A stretch of 64,000 nucleotides of DNA from Paraspadella gotoi (Eukaryota; Animalia; Chaetognatha). Numbering within the stretch: position 1 is the stretch's first letter; each line of letters begins with the position of its first letter. The notes beneath the pieces are model-generated. The model was not told the DNA's origin. It did not search any database and saw nothing but the letters and a program-made list of their open reading frames with translations. Made by a program: the position numbers and the translations under genes. Shown one piece after another: positions 26,716 through 29,700 of this stretch. The DNA lies in NCBI GenBank assembly GCA_051294375.1, contig CM119270.1, forward strand, positions 897,238 through 961,237. Reading direction: 5' to 3'.

Positions 26716-29700
26716 ATGAAGAAACTGTTGGCGCGGATCGAGGGATCGGCGCAGAGCCAACACCATCAGAGCTCGTCCGGCGCCGGAGGAAACTTCGCCG
26801 GGAAAAGCTTCGCCGTCGGCAAGCATCACGTTACCGTGGAGGAGACGATCGCCGAAGGAGGATTCGCTTTGGTCTTTCTCGTCAAAGCGGGTCAGCTTTT
26901 TATTTGAGCTTTTTATTTGAGCTTATATTTAAGTAATATGTTTGTTTTTTGAGAAATATTTTTATCGCATGTCAAATGTTTTAAAAACAAGTCGGAAAAT
27001 ACTATAAAAACAAACGTTGAAAACGGTTAACCATTAAACCAAAATAGTGAAAAACAACAAAAGCTTAAAAAGTGATCGTTATGGCAACGGGGGGGGGACA
27101 ATGTGTGATGCCTGGGGTGTGAGGCATCTCCCGACAGCTGGCGCTCAGGGCTTTGGACCTGCAGTGACCACCCCATGTCACTGGCGTGTTTATACCGACA
27201 CCATCACACTTTAACCAGCGTGACCGTGAGGGGATTGAACCCGGAACTCACGGTTGGTGAATGAGTACTTAGCTGTCCAAGCCAATGGGATGAGCTGAGT
27301 TTCACCAAACTATACGGGAGGCGAATTTAGGATTCGCAACAATGTCTTGATTTTGAATGAATGTGAACATTTGTGTGATTTTGATATAAAAGTTATTTTT
27401 TCAAGTTGGTTTTAAATTTTTTTTAATAAATCAACGCTGAGCTAAAAAATGGGATATAAAATTATTTATTTGAATAATTCTAAAAGTTAATTAAAATCGA
27501 TCATTTTGGGGCCAGGAGGCTTGGAATACCTGGAAGTAACATTTAAAAAAATGTTTTCTTCAAAAAATATTTCAATATGCAAATTAAATTAGTGTGAGCC
27601 TGAATGTACAATGTACAGAGTGGAGCACTGGGGAACATAAATTTTATTTGAGTGAACAAACAAGGATATTTAGACGTCAGATTGTATGATTAAGGAGTAC
27701 AAAAAATATTTTGCTTATATTGTTTGGGGAACAGTATCATTAATTACAATATATTTATAATAATATCCTTATAAAATCATAAATTTTCAAAATAATTTTT
27801 TAAAAATTTTTATTAAAGATTCTGATTCTTCATAAAAAGTTATATCAAAAATATAAAATATGTTATTAAAAATTTTAATGTCTTCAGCATCAAAAATGCA
27901 AAAAAAAGGTCAAATTCTCCACTTATTCATACTTTGTATTAAAAACTATTATATGATGAAACATTTTGATCATTTTTCGCAGCTTTAACCTAAAAATATC
28001 ATGTAACATATTTTACAAAAGTTTTTCATTTTTTTTAGGCGAATCCGAAACTGTTCTTAAAATTAAAAAAATATGATTTAAAAATTTTATAATTTTATAA
28101 GGATATTACTATAAAGAAATTTCAATTAATGATACTGTTATGCAAATTTTTTTTGAAAAATAGCTTAATTATTTTTTATTACATATACAAAGGCAGCAAA
28201 AAAATATTGTTCCATCGCTCAATCTTTTCATCACTCCACCACATTATCATTGATTTAACTTTATCTTCTTATATTTCTTTTCCCCCCCCCCTTAAAAAAT
28301 TAAAAAGCTCACGGGCAACGCTTAGCCCTCAAGCGAATGTACGTCAACAACGAGCCTGACCTGAAGGTGTGCCAGCGCGAGATCCAGATCATGAGGGAAC
28401 TCGGCGCCCACAAGAACATCATCACCTTCGTCGACGCCGCCGTCCGAAATCTCAAGAACGGCGTCCACGAGGTCCTCATCCTCACCAAGTTCTACAGGTC
28501 TGGTCAGGTCCTCCAGCGGATGAACCAGCGGCTCAAGGAAGGGACATGCTTCTCACAGGTGAGAGGGTGGAAACTGGAAAGGGGAGCGGGTAAGGGACGG
28601 GTGAGAGACTCTGGAGTTGATCGCTCCTTTTGGATCATCTTTATTGATGGAAAGAAAAAATTTACTGGCGAAGGAAACGTAGGGGATGAACTTATCTATT
28701 ATCATTTTAAATGAAATTATGTAGATATTCGACGTCACTTAGACGTTGCGTCATAACTTATATATAAATTATATATATAATATATATTCGACGTCACTTC
28801 ACACGTCATAACTTATAATAATCTTCATGTTCGTGTCAATCCTTCTTTCTTAATTAGATTACGTATGTATGTTGGATCGTTGTGATAGTTGTCATTGTCA
28901 CAGTGATTGTTTTGTGATTTTGGGACATTTACTAAGAACAATTAATGTTACTGACTCGGACTTCTTCCTCGACGGTTTGATTGACTAACCCGGCAACCCT
29001 TTTATTTCCCCCCCCCCCACATTTACATTTTTCTTCACTCCCACCTCCCCCCCCAAAAAAAAAGTCGGAAGTCCTCTCCATCTTTTGCGACATGTGCGAG
29101 GCGGTGTCGCGACTCCATCACTGCCAAACACCCATCGCCCATCGCGACCTCAAAGTGGAGAACATCCTCTACGACGAGAAGGAGCGGAGCTTTGTGCTCT
29201 GCGACTTCGGCTCCTGCACGGCGCGAGTGCTGGAGCCGTCCAAGGGTGGAGTCAAGGAGGTGGAGGAGGAAATTCAAAAATACACCACTCTCGCGTATCG
29301 GTGAGGAATGTTAATGGAGGGGGTGAGAGGTTGGAAAGGAATAGAGAGGTCGGAAATTGAAGGAGAGAGTTCGGAAAAGATCATTGATCTCTTTCTCTCT
29401 CAATTCACCTCATCTTTCTCTCTTTTGCCAAAAGTTTTTTTTTTCTGCAATATTTTTTTCTCTCGCTTTACCACCTTCATGTACATTTGCGTTTTCTTTT
29501 CATCCCTCCGCCTTTCCTCTCCCCCCCCCCTCTGCCCGGGATCAGCCCTCCCGAAATGGTGGACCTCTACAGCGGGAAATCAATCGGCACCAAAGCCGAC
29601 ATCTGGTCACTCGGCGTCCTCCTTTACAAACTCTGCTTCTTCTCTCTCCCGTTCGGCGAGAGCGCCCTGGCCATTCAGGGCGGTCAATTCAGCGTGCCCG

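What the first reader, a model, noticed from the sequence alone, without database searches (positions are those of the whole stretch)
27137..27219. Near-canonical type-P5 twister ribozyme behind a tRNA-like head, antisense within AAK1 intron 1
Seen: the core elements are present and paired: P5 GCUGGU/GCCAGC, P2 ACAC/GUGU, P3 7 bp, P4 CAGG/CCUG, UAA, GC, GA, and pseudoknot UGG with loop UCCA. The primary sequence differs strongly from the TRIM copy, yet the helices and the pseudoknot covary (CGG/CCG versus UGG/CCA), which argues for selection on the fold. P1 is reduced to a tiny hairpin. Inference: cleavage between 27192 and 27191; the antisense orientation would spare the host pre-mRNA.
Basis: partly seen in the sequence, partly recalled or inferred. 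Interest (0 to 1): 0.8.

Follow-up and report, generated by a model that had tools for sequence, protein, structure and literature searches.

The report
Twister ribozyme in animal LTR retroelement
A 262-base unit that is highly repeated in this animal's DNA carries every sequence element of a twister-type self-cutting RNA behind a tRNA-like head, and is likely the lone end-repeat (LTR) of a miniature retrotransposon that would cut its own RNA into circle-forming units, a design described so far with a different ribozyme and mainly in plants.

Summary
Confirmed. 27219-27137(-) holds a complete type-P5 twister core: all helices, both pseudoknots, and the catalytic G and U|AA. My descriptor gave 1 hit in the window and 0 strict hits in 1,694 shuffles; Rfam Twister-P5 scores only 21.8 bits (cut-off 37.6). 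The motif lies in a 262-nt unit (27341-27080, TG...TA) whose summed contig depth is about 2,000-fold above its flanks, antisense in the first coding intron of an AAK1/BMP2K kinase gene. Four more related units lie in the window. Two are the LTRs of a TRIM with a tRNA-Trp-type primer site and a polypurine tract. Across these families pseudoknot T1 takes three different complementary forms, and P3 and P4 covary. One metagenome contig joins this unit's 3' end directly to that same primer site. Best reading: a solo LTR of a Helenus-like TRIM (tRNA-derived LTR) that works like an LTR retrozyme, with a twister in place of the hammerhead. I found no such combination in the papers searched. This copy is probably a dead-end insertion, not a host regulator. 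Cleavage, transcription and circles are untested; the target-site duplication is imperfect, and folding predicts a competing inactive structure.

The parts
27080..27341 (-). Repeat unit, 262 nt, TG...TA ends; likely solo LTR of a Helenus-like TRIM family
   Evidence: Depth step and loose ends at 27341-27343 and 27079/27101 in three DNA runs; the letter after ...GCCATA varies in a subgroup (table 7); primer-site junction in one X11 contig; flanks
27321..27337 (-). 5' hairpin, 6 bp; a 6-bp hairpin with different sequence sits at the same place in the TRIM LTR and the 62.8 kb unit
27273..27284 (-). Degenerate A box (begins TGGCT; later positions non-canonical)
   Evidence: 43 nt upstream of B box (45, 46 and 64 in the three sister families)
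27231..27242 (-). B box in a T-arm-like 3-bp hairpin, enclosed by an 8-bp stem 27254-27247/27230-27223
   Evidence: 5 matches in window, 0.08 expected; no tRNA by ARAGORN or Rfam
27137..27219 (-). Type-P5 twister fold (P5, P2, T1, P1, T2, P3, P4, L4)
27191..27192 (-). Predicted cleavage site U27192|A27191 (general acid A27191; general base G27205)
   Evidence: inferred from the twister U-A rule (PMC5408937 passages; PMC8501958 section 17); not tested
27107..27128 (-). 3' hairpin, 7 bp, with compensatory changes in related copies
   Evidence: C-G to U-A at 27123/27112 in X10 and X11 contigs; U-A to U.G at 27113 in 32-43% of depth in three DNA runs; two pairs changed on both sides in the 62.8 kb unit
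27080..27102 (-). Conserved 3' end of the unit; this copy has a private expansion of the C-run and one extra base
   Evidence: tables 4 and 7; shared with 62.8 kb unit
27342..27345 (-). Left flank ACAT, candidate 4-bp target-site duplication; the right flank 27079-27075 reads AC(G)AT, imperfect
27067..27071 (-). First run of 5 T downstream of the unit, candidate Pol III terminator in the flank; no run of 4 or more T inside the unit
26891..28307 (+). First coding intron of an AAK1/BMP2K-family kinase gene (host; opposite strand to the ribozyme)
54579..55233 (-). Related paired-LTR TRIM: LTRs 55233-55000 and 54814-54579 (98% identical), each with A box, B box and P5 twister; primer site 54998-54985; polypurine tract ending at 54815; AAAT on both flanks; antisense between exons of a BUB1/Mad3-like gene
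62818..63070 (+). Older related unit, sense in a VPS52 intron; T1 CGG/CCG kept, segment with UAA, P2 and the 5' half of P3 absent
14545..14790 (+). Fourth related family (ends not defined): A box, B box, T1 GGA/UCC, P1, P3; P2 broken or shifted, extra G in L4

Best explanation
The motif is a complete type-P5 twister fold inside a highly repeated 262-nt unit that is likely a solo LTR of a miniature non-autonomous LTR retrotransposon, whose two-LTR parent would be read by RNA polymerase III from the tRNA-like head and would cut itself once in each LTR to release a unit RNA predicted to be circularised and reverse-transcribed. Shown: the fold elements; the repeat, its ends and depth; a sister family in the window with the same LTR layout plus primer site, polypurine tract and 4-bp flanking repeat; compensatory changes between families; one contig joining this unit to that primer site. 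Inferred: Pol III transcription from the A/B boxes; U|A cleavage leaving a 5'-OH and a 2',3'-cyclic phosphate; a cut-to-cut monomer (421 nt for the window TRIM) that has no terminal repeat and so needs RtcB-type circularisation; tRNA-Trp priming; integration by a Gypsy-type partner. This intronic copy has one ribozyme and no primer site, so it is probably a dead end; if transcribed it would give a ~100-nt and a ~120-nt fragment and leave the AAK1 pre-mRNA uncut.
For: Complete core, 0 strict hits in 1,694 shuffles. The elements that mattered in a screen of ~2,600 natural twisters (both pseudoknots, catalytic A and G, the A after it, the L4 A) are all intact here; ~94% of those tested cleaved (PMC11662667 abstract and section 32). 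All 5 B-box matches in the window (0.08 expected; pattern drawn from these units) are followed by a GA-triplet and a complementary loop triplet, in three forms: UGG/CCA, CGG/CCG, GGA/UCC. Against the TRIM LTR, P3 has 2 of 7 pairs changed on both sides, P4 2 of 4 and T1 1 of 3, all still paired. Sharp ends on both sides with no 5' depth decay; 3,072, 2,362 and 1,212 contigs laid in X1, X2, X5. Loose-end consensus next to the ends reads ATAG/ATGT/ATAT/GTAT on the left and ATAT (GTAG in a subgroup) on the right, as a 4-bp duplication with a site preference would give (table 7, read by eye). In X11 the unit's end is followed after 2 nt by sequence matching the TRIM primer-site region at 20 of 23 letters (compared by eye; the shared motif has 1 window match, 0 in 100 shuffles). 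That primer site matches a Helenus tRNA-Trp site at 13 of 14 letters (PMC10886601 Fig. S2 text). 27k vs TRIM LTR: 141 of 269 columns identical, z 4.0, collinear parts. The retrozyme cycle is established for hammerhead LTR elements (PMC4918200 passages), and RtcB circularises animal retrozyme RNAs in vitro (PMC7229834 passages).
Against: No cleavage, transcript or circle was observed. Rfam score is below the family cut-off. Nearest-neighbour folding (no pseudoknot energy) prefers non-twister folds by 2-3 kcal/mol when the RNA starts at the motif and by 4-13 kcal/mol with upstream sequence, partly by pairing the A-box region with L4; upstream stem-loops lowered average cleavage to 0.40 in the screen. 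The LTR link for this family rests on 1 contig of 152 nt from a metagenome, which may be another species; no paired copy of this family is in the window and no genome is held. The duplication is imperfect here (ACAT vs ACGA) and at 62.8 kb (ATAT vs ATAG), and the end is TA, not CA; AT-rich flanks could mimic the consensus. The A box is degenerate. The TRIM's own P2 is mispaired, and its circular monomer folds only modestly (z -1.7). One X10 contig breaks P5, P3 and P2 pairs, as a decayed copy would.
Confidence: 0.6

Rival explanations
1. Same solo-LTR identity, but replication is linear: cleavage is partial, and RNAs left uncut in the first LTR and cut in the second keep a ~100-nt terminal repeat (start site to cut site) that allows ordinary strand transfer. 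The twister would then serve as the 3'-end maker in place of the T-run found in Helenus LTRs, or be mostly silent in context.
For: Competing folds predicted in context. Helenus LTRs seen in supplement part 7 mostly carry a T-run just after box B (by eye), whereas the 27k unit and the whole TRIM have no run of 4 T (absence over 660 nt is not itself significant). Weak fold signal for the circular monomer.
Against: Both LTRs give the ribozyme the same local context, so selective sparing of the first needs chance. The A-box/L4 pairing is not specific or conserved in the other three families.
Confidence: 0.17
2. The unit is a tRNA-derived SINE with an internal twister and a LINE-type stem-loop tail, like the hammerhead SINE-like repeats of Schistosoma, and is moved by a LINE; the X11 junction would be a SINE inserted next to a primer site.
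For: Dispersed single copies in AT-rich flanks; conserved 3' hairpin and end shared with the 62.8 kb unit; no exact duplication or CA end; promoter-plus-ribozyme SINE-like repeats are known (PMC6765202 passage), and TRIMp3 elements are proposed to arise from SINE insertion into LTRs.
Against: About 55 nt with a conserved hairpin lie upstream of the A box and begin with TG; there is no poly(A) or microsatellite tail; no tandem junction is among the best-supported joints (62 joints not shown); an internal cut would split a single-unit transcript; the layout is collinear with a bona fide LTR; the X11 junction falls 2 nt before the primer site.
Confidence: 0.17
3. The ribozyme has been kept at this place to regulate AAK1, for example by cutting an antisense RNA.
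For: It lies about 190 nt into the first coding intron and keeps an intact core.
Against: It differs from the family majority at only 4 substitution sites plus the tail, one of them weakening P1; an intact core is expected of any young copy.
Confidence: 0.04
4. The resemblance to twister is chance or a dead relic with no catalytic relevance.
For: Sub-threshold Rfam score; the motif alone folds no better than shuffles.
Against: 0 strict hits in 1,694 shuffles; five twister-like motifs at the same place in related units with compensatory pseudoknots.
Confidence: 0.02

Closest known systems
Helenus (tRNA-derived TRIM, 'TRIMp3'; Kojima 2024, PMC10886601; abstract, sections 3.3, 3.5, 4, passages, supplement parts 1 and 7 and motif searches seen)
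   Same: Short LTR with box A and box B, primer site and polypurine tract, 4-bp duplications in animals, solo LTRs, several families per genome, tRNA-Trp among the primers.
   Different: The paper has no occurrence of 'twister'; none of 48 hits for four twister-loop hexamers in its consensus file showed a twister context by eye (line breaks hide some matches). Helenus LTRs seen end soon after box B, mostly via a T-run; here ~150 nt with a twister and a hairpin follow box B and there is no T-run.
Plant LTR retrozymes (Cervera et al. 2016, PMC4918200, passages; review PMC7761336 section 7)
   Same: Non-coding two-LTR element with a self-cleaving ribozyme in each LTR, primer site, polypurine tract, 4-bp duplication, solo LTRs; predicted cut-to-cut monomer without terminal repeat.
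   Different: They use a type III hammerhead and tRNA-Met, are found primarily in plants (bioRxiv 10.64898/2026.07.22.740005 passage), and were said not to seem to carry promoters (a later abstract reports an LTR promoter in Nicotiana, PMC9695139 listing). Here: twister, tRNA-Trp-type site, animal host, A/B boxes; circles not shown.
Type-P5 twister ribozyme (Rfam RF02684; review PMC5408937 passages)
   Same: P1, P2, P4, T1, T2, conserved G and U|A, termini in P5, 2-bp P1.
   Different: Extra 7-bp P3 arm and different P2 and T1 letters; 21.8 bits vs cut-off 37.6; activity untested.
Twister variants at the 5' end of Perere-3/RTE non-LTR retrotransposons (PMC8501958 abstract and section 17; PMC7761336 passage)
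   Same: Twister serving a retroelement in an invertebrate.
   Different: Those are P1-type motifs at the 5' end of LINEs, where the cut defines the start; here the P5 motif is internal to a tRNA-headed, LTR-like unit.
Schistosoma hammerhead SINE-like repeats and metazoan non-LTR retrozymes (PMC6765202, PMC7229834 passages)
   Same: Pol III-type promoter followed by a ribozyme (Schistosoma); small non-coding animal repeats.
   Different: They use a type I hammerhead, occur as tandem arrays, and lack LTR, primer site and polypurine tract.

Membership tests
Twister ribozyme, type P5 | Stems P1, P2, P4 with termini in P5 | tested here: met
   2/2, 4/4, 4/4, 6/6 paired
Twister ribozyme, type P5 | Pseudoknots T1 (3 bp plus A.A) and T2 (2 bp) | tested here: met
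   3/3 and 2/2 Watson-Crick; GA and loop A present; T1 covaries across families
Twister ribozyme, type P5 | Conserved catalytic G and U|A A | tested here: met
   G27205, U27192, A27191, A27190; no variant listed at these sites at 5% or more
Twister ribozyme, type P5 | Rfam RF02684 gathering score | tested here: not met
   21.8 vs 37.6 bits; P3 arm aligned largely as insertions
Twister ribozyme, type P5 | Site-specific self-cleavage | not testable with these tools
   needs a cleavage assay; only contigs, no raw RNA reads, were available
Helenus / TRIMp3 | tRNA-derived box A and box B in the LTR | tested here: met
   B box canonical; A box begins TRGCY but is degenerate; spacing 43 nt; criteria
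Helenus / TRIMp3 | Two LTRs around a short internal part with primer site and polypurine tract | tested here: inconclusive
   Met for the sister TRIM at 55233-54579; for this family only one contig shows unit + primer site; no paired copy seen
Helenus / TRIMp3 | 4-bp target-site duplication (animals) | tested here: inconclusive
   ACAT vs AC(G)AT here, ATAT vs ATAG at 62.8 kb, exact AAAT for the TRIM; family flank consensus alike on both sides
Helenus / TRIMp3 | TG...CA LTR ends | tested here: inconclusive
   TG...TA here and at 62.8 kb; TA ends also occur in a few published Helenus-set LTR consensuses
Helenus / TRIMp3 | Pol III transcription | not testable with these tools
   untested for Helenus itself
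LTR retrozyme | Self-cleaving ribozyme in each LTR | tested here: inconclusive
   Twister folds in both TRIM LTRs (P2 imperfect) and in this unit; activity untested
LTR retrozyme | Ribozyme is a type III hammerhead | tested here: not met
   Twister; no hammerhead match in Rfam scans. So it works like, but is not filed as, a retrozyme in the strict sense
LTR retrozyme | Circular monomer RNA in vivo | not testable with these tools
   no raw RNA reads listed
tRNA-derived SINE | Starts at the tRNA head; ends in an A-rich or microsatellite tail; variable duplications | tested here: not met
   ~55 nt upstream of the A box, fixed 3' end without a repeat tail

The most novel reading that the evidence does not exclude
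This animal harbours a superfamily of Pol III-driven 'twister retrozymes': miniature LTR retrotransposons (at least four diverged families within 64 kb) whose tRNA-derived LTRs use an active P5 twister to release monomers that are circularised and reverse-transcribed. It would be the first LTR retrozyme lineage built on a non-hammerhead ribozyme and the first with a tRNA-type promoter in animals, seeding the genome with on the order of thousands of catalytically competent solo LTRs whose orientation in introns is filtered by selection.
Probability: 0.45. Interest if true: 0.82.

Novelty: new variant of a known kind. Interest (0 to 1): 0.68.

Why it matters
Twister ribozymes are widespread, but their roles are mostly unknown; the one worked-out case I read is 5' processing of a LINE. 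Ribozyme-bearing LTR elements are described with hammerheads, primarily in plants, and tRNA-headed LTR elements (Helenus) are described without ribozymes. This family joins the two. It would show that the retrozyme cycle does not depend on the ribozyme class or the kingdom, and it suggests how a Pol III-driven LTR element could define both RNA ends without a terminator. It also supplies a natural counterpart of the twister-based constructs used to make circular RNA in cells (PMC7229834 passage). It sits below Rfam's cut-off, so similar families would be missed by standard annotation. The single AAK1 copy is itself an ordinary insertion.

Tried and rejected
No whole genome is held, so paired copies, copy number and orientation bias could not be counted. 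Relatives elsewhere: the family-specific pattern gave 0 hits in JGI metagenome contigs. Expression: no RNA holder is on record. X9 (RNA is a guess) has 272 contigs on the unit, some 900-1,800 nt long, and lower summed depth around the predicted cut than beside it; contigs cannot show ends, so I give this no weight. X12 and X13 laid nothing (not proof of absence). Rejected: the 7-bp repeat ACATTGT (27345-27339/27104-27098) as a duplication with a TG...CA unit ending near 27102, because the family continues to 27080 and lacks the base at 27100 in most covering depth. Rejected as a general feature: an A-box/L4 'anti-ribozyme' switch. The pairing is strong in this family (-14.0 kcal/mol; 29 of 2,000 shuffles as good; chosen after the fact) but unremarkable in the other three (1,014, 443 and 1,481 of 2,000), and cross-pairings are as good. 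Rfam found no twister in the TRIM or the 14.6 kb unit. ARAGORN found no tRNA. MAFFT alignments were out of register in places, so pairs were counted by coordinates. In one search my offsets for LTR1 P5 and the two 62.8 kb hairpins were wrong; one search corrects them. One search sliced exon 1 one base off; one search corrects it. The host's phylum was not resolved: named INTS3 homologues from arthropods, molluscs and others are all 60-70% identical. Earlier scan notes held nothing on this genome or sequence; two hammerhead notes did not bear on it. Literature searches for the combination returned hammerhead retrozymes, Helenus and Perere-3 only. The library lacks most subscription papers, including the original 2014 twister paper (not read), and Repbase; bioRxiv supplements and the supplements of PMC8501958 and PMC11662667 were not seen and could list such motifs.
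Full report
Observation. These match the twister definition (stems P1, P2, P4; pseudoknots T1, T2; conserved G and cleavage-site A; type named by where the ends lie) in the review passages I read (PMC5408937). A descriptor I wrote for this layout finds this site alone in the window. It finds no strict hit in 1,694 dinucleotide shuffles of the window, and 8 with mismatches allowed. Rfam's Twister-P5 is the best local match but at 21.8 bits, below its cut-off of 37.6. The host is an animal AAK1/BMP2K-type kinase gene on the + strand; the motif is in its first coding intron, 26891-28307.

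It is part of a repeat. Laying public contigs on 26950-27549 shows a block from about 27080 to 27341 with summed depth 494,000-806,000 in X1 against 220-301 in the flanks, and the same step in X2 and X5 (3,072, 2,362 and 1,212 contigs laid). The tool warns that summed depth is no copy number; I read it only as roughly three orders of magnitude. This copy departs from the majority at four substitution sites (27194, 27262, 27291, 27309) and in its tail; 27113 is polymorphic. The only one inside the ribozyme is 27194, where about 97% of depth in X1, X2 and X5 makes the inner P1 pair G-C instead of G.U. No other core position varies at 5% in those three runs. So the family core is intact, and the family is too young to show covariation within itself.

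Covariation comes from sister families. The B-box motif occurs 5 times in the window against 0.08 expected (pattern drawn from these units): here, at 14.6 kb, at 62.9 kb and twice in the TRIM at 55233-54579. All five are followed by GA plus a triplet and, further on, a loop with the complementary triplet: UGG/CCA here, CGG/CCG in both TRIM LTRs and at 62.9 kb, GGA/UCC at 14.6 kb. Each unit offers 2-4 GA sites, so one match by chance is about 1 in 20; the 14.6 and 62.9 kb units were picked up by BLAST on other parts. Against the TRIM LTR, P3 has two pairs changed on both sides, P4 two and T1 one. P2 is the exception: 2 of 4 in LTR1, a base short in LTR2, broken or shifted at 14.6 kb. In a screen of about 2,600 natural twisters, P1 and P2 defects (and most P4 defects) did not lower cleavage, while pseudoknot and catalytic defects did (PMC11662667, sections 32-33). 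The 3' hairpin also covaries: C-G to U-A in contigs of X10 and X11, and two double changes at 62.9 kb.

LTR or SINE. My first reading was a SINE. Four things moved it. (1) The unit begins TG, about 55 nt before the A box, with a 6-bp hairpin that the TRIM LTR and the 62.8 kb unit also have, and it aligns collinearly with the TRIM LTR (141 of 269 columns, z 4.0). (2) In X11 one 152-nt contig runs from the unit's 3' end, after 2 nt, into sequence that matches the TRIM's primer-site region at 20 of 23 letters (by eye). That site matches a published tRNA-Trp primer site at 13 of 14 letters. (3) The loose ends put the conserved end at ...GCCATA (27080) and give similar 4-nt consensuses on both sides. 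(4) The three insertions in the window have left flanks ACAT, ATAT, AAAT and right flanks ACGA(T), ATAG, AAAT. Against: only the TRIM's duplication is exact (and its first LTR lacks the opening TG as assembled), the end is TA, the primer-site link is a single contig from a metagenome, and no paired copy of this family was seen. I put LTR at about 0.78 and SINE at about 0.17.

Mechanism. Shown: the anatomy above. Inferred, from the plant retrozyme model (PMC4918200 passages; PMC7761336 section 7): a two-LTR parent is transcribed, probably by Pol III from the A/B boxes, since neither this unit nor the 655-nt TRIM has a run of four T. It is cut at U|A in each LTR. For the window TRIM the piece between 55101 and 54681 is 421 nt and has no terminal repeat. 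Its 5'-OH and cyclic-phosphate ends suit RtcB, which circularises animal retrozyme RNAs in vitro (PMC7229834 passages). A circle regenerates a whole LTR at the junction and can be copied from the tRNA primer by a Gypsy-type enzyme, the partner proposed for animal Helenus. Solo LTRs arise by recombination or short copying. The AAK1 copy has no primer site, so it is probably a dead end. Being antisense, it cannot cut the pre-mRNA. The TRIM is likewise antisense between exons of a BUB1-like gene, while the sense copy in a VPS52 intron lacks the UAA-P2-P3 segment; three loci are only suggestive.

Main doubt. Folding without pseudoknot energies prefers other structures: by 2-3 kcal/mol when the RNA starts at the motif and by 4-13 with upstream sequence, in part by pairing the A-box region with L4. 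That pairing is not shared by the other families, so I do not treat it as a switch. It does leave room for partial cleavage and a linear cycle, in which an RNA cut only in the second LTR keeps a terminal repeat. No transcript, cut end or circle was observed; the available runs are contigs.

Comparison. The element works like a plant LTR retrozyme but fails the hammerhead criterion. It is built like Helenus (tRNA-derived LTR, primer site, polypurine tract, 4-bp duplication; PMC10886601), but that paper never mentions twister, and none of 48 loop-hexamer hits in its consensus file showed a twister context by eye. Twisters tied to retroelements in what I read are at LINE 5' ends. Nine full-text searches found no twister in an LTR. 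The library lacks most subscription papers and Repbase, so this is absence from what I could search. No B box + P5 twister was found among 258 prokaryotic, viral and metagenomic loci.

Verdict. Real twister fold about 0.95; isolated core active about 0.8; solo LTR of a Helenus-like family about 0.78; full circular retrozyme cycle about 0.45-0.6. New variant of a known kind; interest 0.68, carried by the family rather than by this insertion.

Noticed in passing
window 55233-54579 (-): Paired-LTR TRIM with twister folds in both LTRs, tRNA-Trp-type primer site, polypurine tract, AAAT flanks and an internal ~47-nt tandem duplication; the best candidate for a cleavage-plus-circularisation test. Its P2 is mispaired in both LTRs as assembled; majority letters were not checked.
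   Followed up: partly
window 62818-63070 (+): Older related unit, sense in a VPS52 intron, with a canonical A box, an internal duplication between the boxes, and loss of the cleavage segment of the twister.
   Followed up: partly
window 14545-14790 (+): Fourth tRNA-headed family with twister remnants (T1 GGA/UCC, 8-bp P3, 10-bp B-box stem); ends and host context not defined.
   Followed up: partly
window 22849-24033 (+): The INTS3 gene appears to continue into a Cys/His-rich zinc-finger-like segment; the closest homologue (P0005, 1,403 aa, 84% identical over the query) carries PF13771 besides the two INTS3 domains, unlike the other listed homologues.
   Followed up: no
window 27617-28240 and 13906-14549: Second repeat in the same AAK1 intron, 75% identical to an inverted copy at 13.9-14.5 kb, with 132-nt inverted arms (MITE-like).
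   Followed up: no
window 47345-47459: AT-rich near-perfect palindrome (weak microRNA-family scores far below cut-off), partly similar to 54215-54290; likely a small foldback transposon.
   Followed up: no
window 39322-40027 and 41224-41998; 1652-1945 and 3785-4080; 11907-12762: Further dispersed, inverted or tandem duplications of 200-450 nt at 75-79% identity.
   Followed up: no
window 27284-27273 with 27159-27148 (-): The A-box region is complementary to P4/L4 of the twister in this family only (-14 kcal/mol); could damp cleavage in full-length transcripts.
   Followed up: yes
runs X10, X11 laid on window 27060-27359: Biofilm metagenome contigs carry a diverged subfamily (shared changes at 27112, 27120, 27123, 27130); whether it is the same species is unknown.
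   Followed up: partly
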